Shown here one piece after another: positions 393-12,332 of a stretch of DNA of 13,851 bases; position 1 is the first letter of the stretch, and the number at the start of each line of letters is the position of its first letter. The position numbers were made by a program, and so were the translations under genes. Under the pieces are notes generated by a model. The model was given only the letters and a program-made list of their open reading frames with translations. It did not search any database and had not been told where the DNA came from. The stretch is taken from the IMG/VR virus record IMGVR_UViG_2706794691_000018; one strand, 5' to 3'. This stretch comes from a virus (lineage: Duplodnaviria > Heunggongvirae > Uroviricota > Caudoviricetes).

Positions 393-680
393 TCAATCCT
401 GCTCAAGATTGTAGATGAGTTTATTCTTCAGCAAAAGCAGAAAACCAGCCTTAAAACCAATCTCTTTCAAAACCCGTAATGATGTGACAAATTCGTCCTC
501 ACGCAAAATAAAACCGTCCGTCAGAAGTCCATTACAAAAATAAAATAACACAGCACCGCTCTTCCTTTGTTGAGATTGCAAACATCTAATGCGGCAATGG
601 CTGACAATCGCTCCATTCTCAACGCGCACAGCATAGAGGCCATTTTCACTAAAAATTTCACGCAATTCTTCGATTTTCAT
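393..680 (-). CDS. hypothetical small protein, 95 aa (MKIEELREIFSENGLYAVRV...)
   Basis: Minus-strand ORF with ATG at 680 preceded by GGAAGGA; lies downstream of a candidate promoter at 762-789. No family recognised. Confidence 0.5.
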   Translation of the reverse strand: MKIEELREIFSENGLYAVRVENGAIVSHCRIRCLQSQQRKSGAVLFYFCNGLLTDGFILREDEFVTSLRVLKEIGFKAGFLLLLKNKLIYNLEQD

Positions 681-761: not shown

Positions 762-789
762 ATTCTATCTGCGAAGGTGCGCGAATCAA
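762..789 (-). promoter_or_regulatory. putative sigma70 promoter (-35 TTGATT, 16-bp spacer, -10 TAGAAT) for the 95-aa and 117-aa genes
   Basis: Reverse complement of 784-789 is TTGATT and of 762-767 is TAGAAT; sits directly after the hok terminator and about 80 nt before the 680 start codon. Confidence 0.3.
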
Positions 790-796
790 ATTCACC

Positions 797-854
797 GGAA
801 ATAAACAACAAAAAACCCGCCGAAACGCTGAGAGATCACAGCGATGGGCGGGTT
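797..854 (-). terminator. Rho-independent terminator closing the hok transcript
   Basis: On the minus strand an 8-bp stem (814-821 with 847-854) with an inner 5-bp stem (826-830 with 839-843) is followed by TTTTTGTTGTTTATTT (reverse complement of 797-813). Confidence 0.5.
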
Positions 855-929
855 AAGTGCGGGTGCGTTGAGGATGCCTGACACATCAGAGGTGGGCGGG
901 GATGGGATCAGCTCCCCGCCCGGTCACTC

Positions 930-1085
930 TTACTTCCTGGATTCGTAGTCTACGAAGACAGCGACCTCCGTCTGGCCGGTTCGGATTCGTACCTCACAGA
1001 GGTCTTTCCTCGTTACCAGTGCCGTCACTATGACGGTTAAACAGATGACGATCAGGGCGATTAACATCGCCTTTTGCTGCTTCAT
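930..1085 (-). CDS. hok: Hok/Gef-family type I toxin, 51 aa (MKQQKAMLIALIVICLTVIVTALVTRKDLCEVRIRTGQTEVAVFVDYESRK)
   Basis: Strong resemblance to HokD/RelF and Gef as I recall them (single TM helix, LTRKDLCE, TEVAVF motif); AAGGAGAAG Shine-Dalgarno immediately upstream of ATG at 1085. The longer track ORF 930..1142 is an in-frame upstream extension. Confidence 0.8.
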   Translation of the reverse strand: MKQQKAMLIALIVICLTVIVTALVTRKDLCEVRIRTGQTEVAVFVDYESRK

Positions 1086-1291
1086 AGCCTGCTTCTCCTT
1101 GCCTTTCGGCATGTAAGAGGCTAACCTACATGTGCAAAGCATGAAATTGGCCTCAGATTAATGTTAAGCGTCTTGCCGGACGCGTAATGTTAACTGGGGC
1201 TTTTCTCTATCTGCCTTTTGGTGTTCATGCCTGAAGCAGATAGCCTCAAGCACCCGCAGTCATTCTACTTACCTCGCCAATATGAAATCAA
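1086..1291 (-). promoter_or_regulatory. hok mRNA leader with putative hok promoter (-35 TTGATT, 18-bp spacer, -10 TAGAAT, reverse complement of 1262-1291); region expected to carry mok start and antisense sok
   Basis: Promoter hexamers seen on the minus strand. Candidate antisense promoter on the plus strand is TTGCCT (1099-1104), 17-bp spacer, TAACCT (1122-1127). Inverted repeat CTATCTGC (1207-1214) with GCAGATAG (1236-1243) fits a structured leader. Confidence 0.35.
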
Positions 1292-1312: not shown

Positions 1313-1999
1313 TCACTCCTTCTCTTCTTTACCGTAGTGGAGTTGACCAATTTTGATAAGAGGGCGTCCCTGAGATTTGCGGTGTAGATTGGTATCGCGC
1401 AGAGAATACACACAGCCACAATATTCCTGCTGATAGAATTTTTCGCGCTTGCTGATTTCAATCATACGGGACGAGCCGCCCTGCTTGCGCCAGTTATAAT
1501 CCCAGTACACCATGCCCGGATAATGCGCGACGGCTCGCCGCCCACAGTCGTTAACCTGCTGCATATTTTTCCAGCGTGAAATGCCCAGTGAACTGCTGAT
1601 CACACTGAAACCATTTTCAGCGGCGTACAGCGCTGTCCGCTCAAAACGCATGTCAAAACACATGGTGCAACGGATCCCTCGTTCGGGCTCCCATTCCATT
1701 CCTTTGGCTCGTTCAAACCAGTTGTCTGTGTCGTAATCAGCATCAATAAACGGCACGCCGTGTTGTTCAGCAAAGCGAATATTCTCATCCTTACGAATTA
1801 AATACTCTTTCTGAGGATGAATGTTCGGGTTGTAGAAAAAGATGGTGTAGTCGATTCCCGAGGCCTGAAGCGCCTCCATCACCTCACCGGAACATGGAGC
1901 ACAGCAAGAGTGCAGTAGTAGTTTGTTTGCCCCGTTTGGGAGCTCCAATTTGGGCCGTTTGAAATCAGCAACTGTCATAAATATGTTTATTGGGGTCAT
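1313..1999 (-). CDS. DUF208 family protein, QueH-like putative epoxyqueuosine reductase (tRNA queuosine maturation), 228 aa
   Basis: N-terminal [11 protein letters not shown] motif plus later RCTMCFD and YCGCVYS cysteine motifs match what I recall of the Fe-S enzyme family QueH/DUF208. Start uncertain (ATG at 1999 or 1978; neither has a clear Shine-Dalgarno). Confidence 0.5.
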
Positions 2000-2560: not shown

Positions 2561-3252
2561 TCACAGTATCGCCTCCTGAAAATTACCCTGATAGAAAGCC
2601 AGTACACGCTGCATAGCTTCGCTCTTCCGGCACTCGCGACAGATTATATTCAGGCGCCTGTCGTAGCGGCGTATTTCTCCGTCAGGTAATGACCAGATAA
2701 GGTCCGGATCAACAACAACCGGTTTCCTCACCTTTACTCTCGAGAGTTTTTTGCGGGCGCTTTGCCAGTCCTTGCGAGCCTGTTCAGACGGGAATAAGCC
2801 GTAGCCAGAATTATATACATCACCACTTGCGACCAGTTCTATGCATAAGCGACCGACAGACGCACGACTGATACCTGTTTCATCTGACAACTGCCGANNN
2901 NNNNNNNNNNNNNNNNNNNNNNNNNNNNNNNNNNNNNNNNNNNNNNNNNNNNNNNNNNNNNNNNNNNNNNNNNNNNNNNNNNNNNNNNNNNNNNNNNNNN
3001 NNNNNNNNNNNNNNNNNNNNNNNNNNNNNNNNNNNNNNNNNNNNNNNNNNNNNNNNNNNNNNNNNNNNNNNNNNNNNNNNNNNNNNNNNNNNNNNNNNNN
3101 NNNNNNNNNNNNNNNNNNNNNNNNNNNNNNNNNNNNNNNNNNNNNNNCCATAGTTCGTTCAGCACTTCTTCACGACTGATATCAAGTCGCGCAGCAAGTT
3201 CTATGGATGTGGCTTTTCCCATTGCTTTCAGTGCGTCAAAAACAGTCTCCAT
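2561..3252 (-). CDS. phage HTH DNA-binding protein at the position of ydaW; interrupted by an N-run, full length unknown
   Basis: N-terminal part ([31 protein letters not shown]) starts at ATG 3252 with GGGAGGAAA upstream and overlaps the ydaV 3' end. C-terminal part (…[23 protein letters not shown]…) ends at 2561. The two parts are in different frames across the gap. Confidence 0.45.
2898..3147. other. masked or unresolved sequence (250 N)
   Basis: Run of N in the supplied sequence. Confidence 1.
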
Positions 3253-4027: not shown

Positions 4028-4855
4028 TTACCCCCTGAAGCCTGGCGGGATCGNNNNNNNNNNNNNNNNNNNNNNNNNNNNNNNNNNNNNNNNNNNNNNN
4101 NNNNNNNNNNNNNNNNNNNNNNNNNNNNNNNNNNNNNNNNNNNNNNNNNNNNNNNNNNNNNNNNNNNNNNNNNNNNNNNNNNNNNNNNNNNNNNNNNNNN
4201 NNNNNNNNNNNNNNNNNNNNNNNNNNNNNNNNNNNNNNNNNNNNNNNNNNNNNNNNNNNNNNNNNNNNNNNNNNNNNNNNNNNNNNNNNNNNNNNNNNNN
4301 NNNNNNNNNNNNNNNNNNNNNNNNNNNNNNNNNNNNNTCCAGAGGGTCAAACTTTTTGACACCTCGATTCCCCCGGGGGGGATTTAGGGGGGGATCTGTT
4401 TTTAGATCTTTATCTGTATCTTTATTAGTTGCCTTTGTGTTGACATCATGTTCAAACACCACTTCAACATCTGTTTGAACACCTGTTAAATTTCTCTCTT
4501 GTTTTGTTTGAACATCTGCTTCCTTTCTGCTTCTTCTGGCCTGAACAGATGCTTTTCCTGCGGCTGATTTTTTGGTTAATTTTTCCCTGACTGATGCCAG
4601 ATCTTCCTCAATCCGAAGATGCACCCATTCCTCGCCGTTATCGCAAAAAAACTCCTGCAAGGATGGTTCAACATCAGCCCATCGCTCGTTAGTCAGACGG
4701 GCAATTTTTGCCAGCCTGTTTTTAGGTATTGGCTTTCCTGTTTGCCAGTAATTGAACATCAGCAACAAATACGCACCATGCTCCTCTGCTGACAAATGCA
4801 TGGTGTCAGCCAGGTAATCAGCTATGTACAGTTGCATGTATGGTAATGCGGCCAT
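4028..4855 (-). CDS. ydaU: phage replication initiator-like protein (DUF1376-like N-terminus); interrupted by an N-run
   Basis: N-terminus MAALPYMQLYIADYLADTMHLSAEEHGAYLLLMFNYWQTGKP; position between ydaT and the DnaC-like gene. Start is one of ATG 4906, 4855 or 4837; the 3' end lies near 4028 but its frame cannot be verified across the gap. Confidence 0.6.
   Translation of the reverse strand: MAALPYMQLYIADYLADTMHLSAEEHGAYLLLMFNYWQTGKPIPKNRLAKIARLTNERWADVEPSLQEFFCDNGEEWVHLRIEEDLASVREKLTKKSAAGKASVQARRSRKEADVQTKQERNLTGVQTDVEVVFEHDVNTKATNKDTDKDLKTDPPLNPPRGNRGVKKFDPLXXXXXXXXXXXXXXXXXXXXXXXXXXXXXXXXXXXXXXXXXXXXXXXXXXXXXXXXXXXXXXXXXXXXXXXXXXXXXXXXXXXXXXXXXXXXXXXXIPPGFRG
4054..4337. other. masked or unresolved sequence (284 N)
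   Basis: Run of N in the supplied sequence. Confidence 1.
4449..4514. repeat. iteron-like repeats TGTT(C/T)(A/G)AACA, three copies, inside the initiator gene (candidate replication origin)
   Basis: TGTTCAAACA at 4449-4458, TGTTTGAACA at 4472-4481 and 4505-4514, with AACATCTG repeated at 4465-4472 and 4511-4518; preceded by two G7 tracts (4375-4381, 4387-4393) and an AT-rich stretch. Confidence 0.35.
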
Positions 4856-7225: not shown

Positions 7226-7475
7226 NNNNNNNNNNNNNNNNNNNNNNNNNNNNNNNNNNNNNNNNNNNNNNNNNNNNNNNNNNNNNNNNNNNNNNNNNNN
7301 NNNNNNNNNNNNNNNNNNNNNNNNNNNNNNNNNNNNNNNNNNNNNNNNNNNNNNNNNNNNNNNNNNNNNNNNNNNNNNNNNNNNNNNNNNNNNNNNNNNN
7401 NNNNNNNNNNNNNNNNNNNNNNNNNNNNNNNNNNNNNNNNNNNNNNNNNNNNNNNNNNNNNNNNNNNNNNNNNNN
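7226..7475. other. masked or unresolved sequence (250 N) between sieB and kilR
   Basis: Run of N in the supplied sequence. Confidence 1.
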
Positions 7476-11060: not shown

Positions 11061-11905
11061 GCAACCACCAATCGCAAAAGCCGATCTGCAAAAAACTCAG
11101 GGAAACCGTGCACCAGCAGCAATTAAAAATAACGACGTGATTAGTTTTATTAACCAGCCATCAATGAAAGAGCAACTGGCAGCAGCTCTTCCACGCCATA
11201 TGACGGCTGAACGTATGATCCGTATCGCCACCACAGAAATTCGTAAAGTTCCGGCGTTAGGAAACTGTGACACTATGAGTTTTGTCAGTGCAATCGTACA
11301 GTGTTCACAGCTCGGACTTGAGCCCGGTAGCGCCCTCGGTCATGCATATTTACTGCCTTTTGGTAATAAAAACGAAAAGAGCGGTAAAAAAAACGTTCAG
11401 CTAATCATTGGCNNNNNNNNNNNNNNNNNNNNNNNNNNNNNNNNNNNNNNNNNNNNNNNNNNNNNNNNNNNNNNNNNNNNNNNNNNNNNNNNNNNNNNNN
11501 NNNNNNNNNNNNNNNNNNNNNNNNNNNNNNNNNNNNNNNNNNNNNNNNNNNNNNNNNNNNNNNNNNNNNNNNNNNNNNNNNNNNNNNNNNNNNNNNNNNN
11601 NNNNNNNNNNNNNNNNNNNNNNNNNNNNNNNNNNNNNNNNNNNNNNNNNNNNNNNNNNNNNNNNNNNNNNNNNNNNNNNNNNNNNNNNNNNNNNNNNNNN
11701 NNCTGGTAATAACGGGCCGTGGGTAACTCACTGGGAAGAAATGGCAAAGAAAACGGCTATTCGTCGCCTGTTCAAATATCTGCCCGTATCAATTGAGATC
11801 CAGCGTGCAGTATCAATGGATGAAAAGGAACCACTGACAATCGATCCTGCAGATTCCTCTGTATTAACCGGGGAATACAGTGTAATCGATAATTCAGAGG
11901 AATAA
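11053..11905 (+). CDS. recT: recombinase RecT (single-strand annealing protein); central part masked
   Basis: N-terminal 120 aa ([26 protein letters not shown]...) and C-terminal 66 aa (...[33 protein letters not shown]...SVIDNSEE) match RecT; the two parts are in different frames across the N-run. Confidence 0.8.
11413..11702. other. masked or unresolved sequence (290 N) inside recT
   Basis: Run of N in the supplied sequence. Confidence 1.
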
Positions 11906-11932: not shown

Positions 11933-11960
11933 AACTTGAAATATTTTTATGAGAAAAATT

Positions 11961-12038
11961 ATGAGATATGACAATGTTAAACCATGTCCATTTTGTGGTT
12001 GTCCATCAGTAACGGTGAAAGCCATTTCAGGATATTAC
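11961..12038 (+). CDS. ralR: restriction alleviation protein RalR/Lar, 5' portion only (3' end masked)
   Basis: MRYDNVKPCPFCGCPSVTVKAISGYY matches the RalR N-terminus (zinc-ribbon CPFCGC); the ORF runs into the N-run at 12039. Confidence 0.7.
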
Positions 12039-12255
12039 NNNNNNNNNNNNNNNNNNNNNNNNNNNNNNNNNNNNNNNNNNNNNNNNNNNNNNNNNNNNNN
12101 NNNNNNNNNNNNNNNNNNNNNNNNNNNNNNNNNNNNNNNNNNNNNNNNNNNNNNNNNNNNNNNNNNNNNNNNNNNNNNNNNNNNNNNNNNNNNNNNNNNN
12201 NNNNNNNNNNNNNNNNNNNNNNNNNNNNNNNNNNNNNNNNNNNNNNNNNNNNNNN
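12039..12255. other. masked or unresolved sequence (217 N) covering the ralR 3' end and downstream region
   Basis: Run of N in the supplied sequence. Confidence 1.
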
Positions 12256-12332
12256 TAAAACTGATAAATTTTAATTGCGAGAAACTTCAGTCCTCGTGAA
12301 TTGCATTGTATTCAAATTAAAACTTCATAGCT

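What the first reader, a model, noticed from the sequence alone, without database searches (positions are those of the whole stretch)
797..1291. Complete-looking hok-type type I toxin locus embedded in a Rac-like prophage
The 51-aa toxin has a strong Shine-Dalgarno sequence, a plausible upstream promoter (TTGATT/TAGAAT), a structured 170-nt leader with an inverted repeat, a candidate antisense promoter on the opposite strand near the start codon, and a two-tier intrinsic terminator. In K-12 the closely related hokD is in Qin, not Rac, which points to module exchange between lambdoid prophages. The predicted mRNA length of about 450 nt is comparable to known hok mRNAs. Whether a mok reading frame and a functional sok are intact is not resolved; chromosomal hok loci are often decayed.
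Basis: partly seen in the sequence, partly recalled or inferred. Interest (0 to 1): 0.55.

Follow-up and report, generated by a model that had tools for sequence, protein, structure and literature searches.

The report
Intact hok/mok/sok toxin-antitoxin locus
This is a complete copy of the well-known hok/sok "host-killing" toxin–antisense-RNA module sitting in a Rac-like prophage; it is nearly identical to the hokW/sokW module of Shiga-toxin phages that has already been tested in the laboratory, so it is real but ordinary.

Summary
Window 803-1291 (minus strand) holds a complete hok/mok/sok type I toxin-antitoxin locus.

- **Leader:** it matches Rfam RF01794 at 117 bits, against a threshold of 59.
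- **Toxin:** the 51-aa ORF is a Pfam Hok/Gef protein. It is 50/51 identical to HokW of phage 933W/Sp5.
  - mok is intact. It is a 70-codon frame (930-1142) in frame with hok, exactly as in the annotated mokC/hokC and mokW/hokW pairs.
  - A sok gene is present on the plus strand (about 1134-1204). Its promoter hexamers are identical to those of sokW.
- **RNA elements:** the 5' end (tac) pairs with a 3' element (fbi, 861-873). This pairing covaries across 35 related loci.
- **"Two-tier terminator":** the first hairpin is not a terminator. It is the protective stem of the processed mRNA. fbi follows it, and then the real terminator.
- **Context:** the prophage is Rac-like (intR, recE, ydaSTUV). 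K-12 hokD in Qin is a 5'-truncated relative.
- **Prior knowledge:** the exact 701-bp sequence is in RefSeq, annotated as hokD. hokW/sokW has been shown experimentally to be a working toxin-antitoxin pair.

Verdict: already known, low interest. One caveat: a lineage-specific 10-nt deletion has rebuilt the hok promoter.

The parts
1262..1291 (-). hok/mok mRNA promoter: -35 TTGATT (1291-1286), 18-nt spacer, -10 TAGAAT (1267-1262)
   Evidence: Consensus scan gives a 9/12 match. The -10 TAGAAT is shared with 933W, HannyBb and other relatives. The -35 is lineage-specific: a 10-nt deletion removed the relatives' TTGGCG-N17 arrangement. Activity was not tested.
803..1255 (-). Full-length hok/mok mRNA, about 445-450 nt. 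The 5' end at 1255 (possibly up to 1258) and the 3' end in the U-tract are inferred.
   Evidence: The 5' end is placed by the Rfam RF01794 model start and by alignment to other hok mRNAs. Complementarity to the 3' element extends to 1258. MFE is -191.5 kcal/mol, z = -8.4.
1244..1255 (-). tac (translational activator element), GGGUGCUUGAGG at the mRNA 5' end
   Evidence: It pairs with fbi in the MFE of the full-length RNA. It pairs with ucb in 5' fragments, which is the open form and the Rfam consensus.
1196..1200 (-). ucb / anti-SD (GCCCC), which pairs with the mok Shine-Dalgarno in the closed form
   Evidence: The full-length MFE pairs mRNA 56-58/60 with 102/104-106, with the same single C x A mismatch described for R1 (PMC9841398). 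These columns are invariant in 35 loci.
1155..1195 (-). Sok-target hairpin in the leader. It is about 18 nt longer than in hokC or the Rfam consensus.
   Evidence: Rfam alignment, folds and alignments. The extension is shared by the 933W, HannyBb and 2009C loci.
1151..1154 (-). mok Shine-Dalgarno GAGG, 8 nt before the mok AUG
   Evidence: The sequence and spacing equal those of R1: GAGG at 104-107 and AUG at 116-118 (PMC9841398). In the window they are at mRNA 102-105 and 114-116. Predicted paired in the full-length RNA (unpaired probability about 0).
930..1142 (-). mok: a 70-codon frame in frame with hok that shares its stop codon
   Evidence: ORF list. Same 70-aa plus 51-aa layout as annotated mokW/hokW in 933W. 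Same in-frame layout as mokC/hokC in K-12. The start codon aligns with theirs.
1117..1121 (-). dcb (GCCUC), which pairs with the mok Shine-Dalgarno region in the open form
   Evidence: The fold of the first 140 nt pairs 102-106 with 135-139. The IncFII R1-type control gives the same pairing.
1095..1100 (-). hok Shine-Dalgarno AAGGAG
   Evidence: Read directly from the sequence. CAAGGA is invariant in 35 loci. Predicted paired (unpaired probability 0.01-0.02) in both full-length and truncated RNA. This fits the requirement for mok translation to open it.
930..1085 (-). hok toxin gene, 51 aa
   Evidence: Pfam PF01848 at 81 bits. 98% identical to HokW, 90% to K-12 HokD, 78% to HokC, 45% to R1 Hok. 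Annotated hokD (WP_014532198.1) in an identical RefSeq sequence.
944..947 (-). UACG motif at the Tyr47 codon, a candidate TadA A-to-I editing site (A at 946) giving Tyr to Cys
   Evidence: CUACGAA sits in a 7-nt loop when the site plus or minus 25 nt is folded. The motif and the editing of K-12 hokC/D/E at this position are reported in PMC5630033. Editing of this locus was not tested.
894..921 (-). Post-stop G+C-rich stem-loop (9 bp, 10-nt loop), the predicted 3' end of the processed, translatable mRNA
   Evidence: Perfect 9-bp inverted repeat and folds. The homologous helix covaries in 35 loci. Its role in R1 is described in PMC9841398.
861..873 (-). fbi (fold-back inhibition element), CCUCAACGCACCC, complementary to tac with one bulged C
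   Evidence: MFE. The duplex is -21.5 kcal/mol and starts 56 nt after the stop codon. The complementarity extended to 858-866 / 1250-1258 is 9/9. Compensatory U-A to C-G change across loci.
803..854 (-). Intrinsic terminator: interrupted hairpin at 814-854 (8 bp + 5 bp) followed by UUUUUUGUUGUUU
   Evidence: Fold. It is homologous to the short AACCCGC-TTCG-GCGGGTTTTT terminator of K-12 hokD and HannyBb, but with about 23 extra nt in the loop.
1099..1127 (+). sok promoter: -35 TTGCCT (1099-1104), 17-nt spacer, -10 TAACCT (1122-1127)
   Evidence: Sequence. The hexamers are identical to 933W, where a sokW promoter mutation abolished antitoxin activity. Only 7/12 match the consensus, so the automatic scan did not list it.
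1134..1204 (+). Predicted Sok antisense RNA, about 71-77 nt (3' end 1204-1210): a 5' single-stranded tail of about 15 nt, a long hairpin, then GGGGCUUUU
   Evidence: Placed by alignment to annotated sokW (71 nt) and sokC (59 nt). Each of these overlaps the first 9 nt of its mok gene, as here. The fold is -28.6 kcal/mol, z = -4.7, the same shape as SokW and SokC. No expression data.

Best explanation
It is an intact hok/mok/sok type I toxin-antitoxin module of the hokD/hokW subgroup. It is carried in the early-region cargo of a Rac-like prophage, between queH and a rem homologue.

Proposed mechanism, inferred by homology to R1 hok/sok and Sp5 hokW/sokW:

1. A weak promoter makes a stable mRNA of about 450 nt. 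Its 5' end (tac) pairs with the 3' fbi element.
2. In this closed form the mok Shine-Dalgarno is held by ucb and the hok Shine-Dalgarno is buried. Neither frame is translated and Sok cannot bind.
3. Slow 3' trimming back to the post-stop stem-loop removes the terminator and fbi. The 5' end refolds (tac/ucb, SDmok/dcb) and exposes the mok start region.
4. While the prophage is transcribed, the short-lived antisense Sok RNA (plus strand, about 1134-1204) pairs with the mok start region. This blocks mok translation and therefore hok translation, and it triggers RNase III cleavage.
5. If Sok synthesis stops, for example through prophage loss, prophage induction or transcription shut-off, ribosomes translate mok, open the hok start and make the 51-aa Hok. 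Hok inserts into the inner membrane and depolarises or lyses the cell.
6. Full toxicity may further depend on TadA editing of the Tyr47 codon to Cys. This step is inferred only.

Shown here: all the sequence elements, their complementarity and their conservation. Inferred: transcription, processing, Sok turnover, toxicity and the biological role.
For: - Leader: Rfam RF01794 match, full length, 117 bits against a gathering score of 59.
- Toxin: Pfam HOK_GEF at 81 bits. Hok is 50/51 identical to HokW and 46/51 to K-12 HokD.
- DNA: 91% identical to the 933W locus, where hokW, mokW and sokW are annotated. The sizes and overlaps are the same (70 aa, 51 aa, a 71-nt antisense RNA overlapping 9 nt of mok).
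- mok: it is in frame with hok, as in K-12 mokC/hokC.
- Long-range pairing:
  - tac and fbi pair in the MFE, z = -8.4.
  - A tac-fbi duplex of -17 kcal/mol or better is found in 52 of 61 distinct hok loci. In 50 of them it starts 45-58 nt after the stop codon.
  - RNAalifold on 35 loci recovers the pairing independently. One pair shows a compensatory change: U-A in 17 sequences and C-G in 15.
- Translation control: ucb/SDmok closure and hok Shine-Dalgarno burial are predicted. The 5' 140-nt fragment folds into the published open form. An R1-type plasmid locus behaves identically under the same computation.
- Sok: it folds like SokW and SokC. Its promoter hexamers are identical to those of 933W.
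- No lesion: there is no IS element, frameshift or truncation. K-12 hokD, by contrast, has homology starting only at the hok Shine-Dalgarno.
- Experiments on relatives:
  - HokW is toxic and sits in the inner membrane.
  - sokW expressed from its own promoter neutralises it.
  - The pair aids Sp5 release after mitomycin C (PMC8621323).
  - The HokW-identical peptide 35_712 is listed in a table of Hok peptide and coding sequences in the supplement of bioRxiv 10.1101/2025.08.07.668861. The text reports 45 homologs assayed, of which only three others were non-toxic.
Against: - No expression data exist for this locus.
- A 10-nt deletion, specific to this allele and its Shigella flexneri / FDAARGOS relatives, destroyed the relatives' -35 (TTGGCG-N17). 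It left TTGATT with a non-optimal 18-nt spacer, so hok transcription may be altered.
- The sok -10 (TAACCT) matches the consensus at only 3 of 6 positions.
- The fbi element lies upstream of an unusually large terminator hairpin. About 85 nt would have to be trimmed to activate the mRNA, against about 39 nt in R1.
- Chromosomal hokA, hokB and hokC loci were reported unable to mediate post-segregational killing or rifampicin activation (cited in bioRxiv 10.1101/2025.08.07.668861).
- The predicted MFE of the truncated RNA does not adopt the open form. The same is true of the R1-type control, so this is uninformative.
Confidence: 0.85

Rival explanations
1. The locus is intact in sequence but functionally quiet. 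It is transcribed and kept off, yet cannot be triggered to kill. Possible causes are the rebuilt hok promoter, the long 3' tail that must be trimmed, or a requirement for TadA editing that keeps active Hok too low. It would then be a passenger rather than a working addiction or lysis module.
For: - The 10-nt deletion in the promoter region is specific to this allele.
- The terminator is expanded, and this form is found in only 2 of 5426 complete E. coli genomes.
- Chromosomal hokA, hokB and hokC loci were reported not to mediate post-segregational killing or rifampicin activation.
- Tyr rather than Cys is encoded at position 47, and a Cys-Cys disulfide is needed for HokB toxicity.
Against: - Every regulatory element is preserved, which would not be expected under neutral decay.
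- The closest relative hokW/sokW, with the same Tyr47 codon, is active from its native prophage.
- K-12 HokD is listed among the positive toxicity controls, and the HokW-identical peptide 35_712 appears in the same study's sequence table. Both encode Tyr at this position.
Confidence: 0.12
2. It is a decayed hok remnant, like the K-12 chromosomal copies that are disrupted by IS elements, point mutations or truncation.
For: This is the general expectation for chromosomal hok loci in K-12. hokD in Qin lacks everything upstream of the hok Shine-Dalgarno.
Against: - There is no IS element, truncation or frameshift.
- mok and hok are open, with start codons and Shine-Dalgarno sequences.
- tac, ucb, dcb, fbi, the post-stop hairpin, the terminator and the sok promoter are all present.
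Confidence: 0.02
3. It is a chance small ORF with fortuitous hairpins.
For: None beyond the weak specificity of promoter-consensus scans.
Against: Rfam E = 1e-26, Pfam E = 4e-23, fold z = -8.4, and more than 90% DNA identity to annotated hok loci.
Confidence: 0.005

Closest known systems
hokW/mokW/sokW of Stx2 phage 933W / Sakai prophage Sp5 (AF125520; PMC8621323)
   Same: - Hok is 50/51 identical (only E50R differs), with the same VDY C-terminus and the same CUACGAA context.
- mok is 70 codons and in frame.
- Sok has the same size, start point, hairpin and promoter hexamers.
- The target hairpin carries the same extension.
- tac and fbi are identical.
- DNA is 91% identical over 84% of the locus.
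   Different: - Position: this locus lies between queH and rem in the early region of a Rac-like prophage, not near the right end of an Stx phage.
- The Sok 5' tail and mok start region differ at about 8 positions.
- The promoter region differs.
- The 3' end differs: 933W lacks the AACCCGC...GCGGGTT terminator.
hokD (relF) of E. coli K-12 cryptic prophage Qin
   Same: - 90% identical toxin.
- Same hok Shine-Dalgarno, post-stop hairpin, fbi and terminator core.
- The same downstream neighbour, rem (68% aa identity).
   Different: K-12 hokD has lost the promoter, tac, ucb, the Sok target, mok and sok. Homology begins at the hok Shine-Dalgarno, directly after relE. The window holds the undisrupted form.
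hokC(gef)/mokC/sokC of E. coli K-12
   Same: - In-frame mok (69 aa against 70).
- An annotated Sok RNA starting 9 nt inside mok.
- The same tac sequence.
- 78% identical toxin.
   Different: - In hokC the target hairpin is about 18 nt shorter.
- K-12 hokC has IS186 close downstream.
- It is a chromosomal locus, not a prophage locus.
hok/mok/sok (parB) of plasmid R1, the paradigm system
   Same: - The same set and order of elements: tac, ucb, Sok target, SDmok, mok, dcb, hok, 3' stem-loop, fbi.
- The same GAGG-N8-AUG mok start.
- The same behaviour in folding computations.
   Different: - Only 45% toxin identity.
- R1 mok is in the +1 frame relative to hok (start codons 58 nt apart), whereas here it is in frame (57 nt).
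- The R1 mRNA is 398 nt, against about 450 nt here.
- It is carried on a plasmid and serves post-segregational killing.

Membership tests
[quoted passage not shown] | Small (about 50 aa) Hok/Gef toxin with an N-terminal hydrophobic helix and a conserved periplasmic Cys | tested here: met
   Pfam PF01848 at 81 bits, cutoff 22. Cys30 and the invariant columns are shared with HokW, HokD, HokC and R1 Hok. The NCBIfam Hok subfamily model scores 55, below its cutoff of 73.
[quoted passage not shown] | Structured 5' leader matching the hok/sok covariance model (tac stem, ucb, Sok-target hairpin, SDmok/dcb stem) | tested here: met
   Rfam RF01794, model positions 1-157 of 157, 117 bits against a gathering score of 59.
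[quoted passage not shown] | A mok reading frame with its own Shine-Dalgarno that starts upstream of hok and overlaps it | tested here: met
   70-codon ORF at 930-1142 with GAGG 8 nt upstream. It aligns with annotated mokW and mokC.
[quoted passage not shown] | A cis-encoded antisense sok gene: promoter inside the mok/hok start region, 5' tail complementary to the mok start region, terminal hairpin plus U-tract | tested here: met
   The TTGCCT-N17-TAACCT promoter, the start at 1134 and the fold all correspond to annotated sokW and sokC. This is met at sequence level only.
[quoted passage not shown] | Long-range tac-fbi pairing that closes the full-length mRNA | tested here: met
   12 bp with one bulge, -21.5 kcal/mol. 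Present in the MFE. It covaries across loci.
[quoted passage not shown] | A stable stem-loop just after the stop codon that ends the processed mRNA | tested here: met
   A 9-bp perfect G+C-rich stem at 894-921. The helix covaries in 35 loci.
[quoted passage not shown] | 3' processing of a stable mRNA, an unstable Sok RNA, and RNase III cleavage of the duplex | not testable with these tools
   This needs northern blots or a rifampicin chase. For hokW, smaller RNAs were seen and partial RNase III dependence was reported (PMC8621323).
[quoted passage not shown] | Toxicity of Hok and its neutralisation by Sok | not testable with these tools
   Shown for HokW/sokW, which differs by 1 of 51 residues. 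Not shown for this allele.
hokD (K-12 relF) orthologue | Position downstream of relBE in the Qin prophage, lacking its own leader, mok and sok | tested here: not met
   The window has queH upstream and a complete leader, and the prophage is Rac-like. PGAP names the toxin HokD on protein similarity only.
Rac-like lambdoid prophage (context claim) | IntR-type integrase, XisR, RecE/RecT, KilR, and YdaS/T/U/V-type immunity and replication genes, integrated at ttcA | tested here: met
   Pfam hits for the integrase, Exonuc_VIII, YdaT, DUF1376 (YdaU), IstB-like (YdaV) and SieB. 97-98% DNA identity over 77-78% of the window to annotated Rac-like prophages next to ttcA. The attachment site itself lies outside the window.

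The most novel reading that the evidence does not exclude
In this Shigella-lineage allele the module may have been re-tuned. A 10-nt deletion swapped the hok -35 element. The terminator loop gained about 23 nt. The Tyr47 codon sits in CUACGAA, which is identical to the tRNA-Arg2 anticodon loop. Hok killing could therefore be gated mainly by TadA A-to-I editing (Tyr47 to Cys, allowing a Cys30-Cys47 disulfide) rather than by Sok decay alone. That would make it an editing-dependent prophage kill or lysis switch.
Probability: 0.15. Interest if true: 0.35.

Novelty: already known. Interest (0 to 1): 0.12.

Why it matters
It matters little beyond annotation. The locus shows what K-12 hokD looked like before relBE replaced its 5' half. 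It also adds a Rac-like prophage to the lambdoid elements known to carry a complete hokW-type module. RefSeq annotates only the toxin here. The mok frame, the Sok RNA and the regulatory RNA elements could be added to the annotation. If the module is active, it could stabilise the prophage or speed lysis on induction, as reported for Sp5.

Tried and rejected
- **Terminator scan:** it found nothing, because the terminator loop exceeds the 8-nt limit of the scan. Folding was used instead.
- **MFE of the 3'-truncated mRNA:** it keeps the mok Shine-Dalgarno closed and does not give the published open form. The R1-type control behaves the same way. Whole-molecule MFE therefore cannot test the refolding step. 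Only the 5' fragments reproduce the open form.
- **Shuffled-tac control for the tac-fbi duplex:** it discriminates weakly, because 12% of shuffles reach -17 kcal/mol in these G+C-rich tails. I relied on the fixed position of fbi and on covariation instead.
- **NCBIfam Hok models:** they score below their cutoffs, so they were not used as evidence of membership.
- **17-nt inverted repeat (819-835 vs 1094-1110):** this lies between the terminator-loop insert and the hok Shine-Dalgarno region. I considered it as an extra anti-SD element. It is 76% complementary and rests on a 7-nt seed, of which about 8 are expected by chance in 511 nt. I treated it as chance.
- **Exact peptide search:** I searched the supplement of the 2025 Hok survey for this peptide. 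Only the HokW form was found in the text held.
- **Decayed locus:** this idea was checked against K-12 hokD and hokC and rejected.
Full report
**Observation**

- The 51-aa ORF (930-1085) reads MKQQKAMLIALIVICLTVIVTALVTRKDLCEVRIRTGQTEVAVFVDYESRK. It is a Pfam Hok/Gef protein at 81 bits, cutoff 22.
- The 176 nt upstream of and into the ORF (1080-1255) match the Rfam hok/sok covariance model RF01794 over its whole length. The score is 117 bits against a gathering score of 59, E = 1e-26.
- The consensus scan finds TTGATT-N18-TAGAAT at 1291-1262.
- The whole predicted transcript (1255 to about 803) folds at -191.5 kcal/mol. Shuffles average -139.8, giving z = -8.4.

The feature is real and far beyond chance.

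**Anatomy: leader and mok**

Numbering the mRNA from 1255, the elements are as follows.
- tac (GGGUGCUUGAGG) is at nt 1-12.
- ucb / anti-SD (GCCCC) is at nt 56-60.
- A long Sok-target hairpin spans nt 61-101.
- The mok Shine-Dalgarno GAGG is at nt 102-105 and the mok AUG at nt 114-116. The 8-nt spacing is the same as in R1, where GAGG is at 104-107 and the AUG at 116-118 (PMC9841398).
- dcb (GCCUC) is at nt 135-139.
- The hok Shine-Dalgarno AAGGAG is at nt 156-161, and the hok AUG at nt 171.

It is intact: 70 codons (930-1142), in frame with hok and sharing its stop codon.
- This is the layout annotated for mokW (70 aa) and hokW (51 aa) in phage 933W.
- It is also the layout of mokC and hokC in K-12.
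- In R1, mok is in the +1 frame, with start codons 58 nt apart rather than 57.
- The frame relationship is therefore not a defining feature. Only translation up to the hok start matters (PMC9841398).

**Anatomy: 3' end**

After the stop codon come three elements.
- A perfect 9-bp G+C-rich stem-loop lies at 894-921.
- fbi (CCUCAACGCACCC) lies at 861-873.
- An interrupted terminator hairpin lies at 814-854, followed by UUUUUUGUUGUUU.

The "two-tier terminator" is therefore something else. The first hairpin corresponds to the stem that ends and protects the processed, translatable mRNA in R1 (PMC9841398). Only the second is a terminator.

In the minimum-energy fold, tac pairs with fbi (12 bp with one bulged C), the mok Shine-Dalgarno is closed by ucb, and the hok Shine-Dalgarno is buried. 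The first 140 nt fold into the published open form (tac/ucb stem, target hairpin, SDmok/dcb stem). An R1-type plasmid locus gives the same results in the same computations, including the failure of whole-molecule MFE to show the open form after truncation. The window locus therefore behaves like the reference.

**Sok**

On the plus strand, TTGCCT (1099-1104), a 17-nt spacer and TAACCT (1122-1127) precede a G at 1134.
- Aligned with 933W and K-12, this G is the annotated 5' end of sokW and sokC. Both start 9 nt inside their mok gene, as here.
- The predicted RNA (1134 to 1204-1210) folds into a 5' single-stranded tail, a long hairpin and GGGGCUUUU. The energy is -28.6 kcal/mol, z = -4.7. SokW and SokC have the same shape.
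- Both promoter hexamers are identical to those of 933W.

**Conservation test**

A protein-guided scan of one genome per species returned 80 hok loci.
- In 52 of 61 distinct loci the 5' 13 nt form a duplex of -17 kcal/mol or better with the 3' UTR. In 50 of these it starts 45-58 nt after the stop codon. The window's duplex starts at 56.
- RNAalifold on 35 loci predicted the tac-fbi helix without being told about it. One pair is compensatory: U-A in 17 sequences, C-G in 15, and only 1 broken.
- The post-stop hairpin also covaries.

**Context**

- The window encodes an IntR-type integrase, RecE, YdaT, YdaU (DUF1376), YdaV (IstB-like), SieB, DUF977 and DUF1367 proteins.
- It is 97-98% identical over 77-78% of its length to annotated Rac-like prophages integrated next to ttcA. 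Many of these also carry queH followed by hokD.
- The exact 701 bp around the locus occur in E. coli FDAARGOS_943 and 944, where PGAP annotates hokD (WP_014532198.1) and queH.
- Shigella flexneri SFBU1023 and E. coli ECMA0423 differ at 3 of 1553 nt.
- K-12 hokD lies in Qin, directly after relBE. It shares sequence with the window only from the hok Shine-Dalgarno onward.
- The ORF downstream of the window's locus (393-680) is 68% identical to Rem, the gene downstream of K-12 hokD.
- The window therefore shows the undisrupted hok-rem arrangement.

**What is known**

- hokW/mokW/sokW were annotated in the deposited 933W phage record AF125520.
- HokW is toxic and localises to the inner membrane. 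sokW expressed from its own promoter neutralises it. The antitoxic activity depends partly on RNase III and Hfq. The pair roughly doubles Sp5 phage release after mitomycin C (PMC8621323).
- A 2025 survey found hok enriched in prophages. The HokW-identical peptide (35_712) appears in its supplementary sequence table, and only three other peptides of the 45 assayed were non-toxic.

The kind, the subgroup and even this exact sequence are already public.

**Caveats and small peculiarities**

- The allele carries a 10-nt deletion between the relatives' -35 (TTGGCG-N17) and the shared -10.
- The terminator loop is about 23 nt longer than in K-12 hokD or HannyBb. This form is in only 2 of 5426 complete E. 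coli genomes.
- Activation would need about 85 nt of 3' trimming.
- Tyr47 is encoded by UAC followed by G, within CUACGAA. From memory of the tRNA sequence, this is the 7-nt anticodon loop of tRNA-Arg2. A local fold places it in a 7-nt loop. [quoted passage not shown] It was not tested.
- Chromosomal hokA, hokB and hokC loci were reported not to mediate post-segregational killing. A structurally intact but physiologically quiet locus therefore remains a real alternative.

**Verdict**

The locus is a complete hok/mok/sok module of the hokW/hokD subgroup in a Rac-like prophage. It is already known, and of low interest beyond better annotation of mok, sok and the RNA elements.

Noticed in passing
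window 1262-1291 (-): The window, S. flexneri SFBU1023 and E. coli ECMA0423 lack 10 nt (ACGGTAGTTA) that relatives have between GGCGAGGTA and AGTAGAAT. Those relatives are HannyBb, E. coli 2009C-3133, E. albertii and E. ruysiae. The deletion removes their TTGGCG-N17-TAGAAT promoter and brings TTGATT to an 18-nt spacing.
   Followed up: partly
window 814-854 (-): The terminator loop carries about 23 extra nt compared with K-12 hokD and HannyBb. This form occurs in only 2 of 5426 complete E. coli genomes. The insert is 76% complementary to the hok Shine-Dalgarno region (819-835 vs 1094-1110), which is probably chance.
   Followed up: partly
window 944-947 (-), A at 946: The Tyr47 codon UAC followed by G lies in CUACGAA, which is identical to the tRNA-Arg2 anticodon loop. 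It is a candidate TadA A-to-I site that would recode Tyr47 to Cys opposite the hard-coded Cys30. HokW has the same context, whereas K-12 hokD has UUACGAA.
   Followed up: partly
window 1110-1112 (-): There is an extra in-frame AUG at mok codon 11 (ACAUGCC). Relatives read ACGUGCC. Among the loci examined, only this window, L008 and L009 have it. It would give a 60-aa N-terminally extended Hok if used.
   Followed up: no
window 393-680 (-) and 762-789 (-): The 95-aa ORF downstream of hok is 68% identical to Rem of K-12 Qin, the gene downstream of K-12 hokD. It is preceded by a second TTGATT-N16-TAGAAT promoter-like site with the same hexamers as the hok promoter.
   Followed up: partly
window 1313-1999 (-): A prophage-borne epoxyqueuosine reductase QueH (Pfam 221 bits) lies directly upstream of hok. 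The queH-hokD pair is common in E. coli Rac-like prophages, and phage HannyBb has an unannotated ORF of the same length in that position. Its role in a prophage is unexplained.
   Followed up: no
window 11949-12299 (+): The start of a RalR-like ORF is present (MRYDNVKPCPFCGCPSVTVKAISGYY...). RalR is the toxin of the Rac ralR/ralA type I system. [quoted passage not shown]
   Followed up: no
window 2898-3147, 4054-4337, 7226-7475, 11413-11702, 12039-12255: Five runs of N (masked sequence) interrupt several prophage genes, including recT and ralR. None touches the hok locus.
   Followed up: yes
L009, L016, L018 (S. flexneri SFBU1023): One genome carries three hokD-type loci. Their mok start regions, and hence their Sok 5' tails, differ at several positions, while the rest of the leader is nearly identical. 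This fits insulation against cross-talk between paralogous Sok RNAs.
   Followed up: no
L003 (IncFII plasmid pMTY1886): A plasmid hok locus whose toxin matches the R1 Hok query sequence has mok in frame with hok (57 nt between the start codons). In R1 itself mok is in the +1 frame (58 nt), so the mok frame flips within very close relatives.
   Followed up: partly
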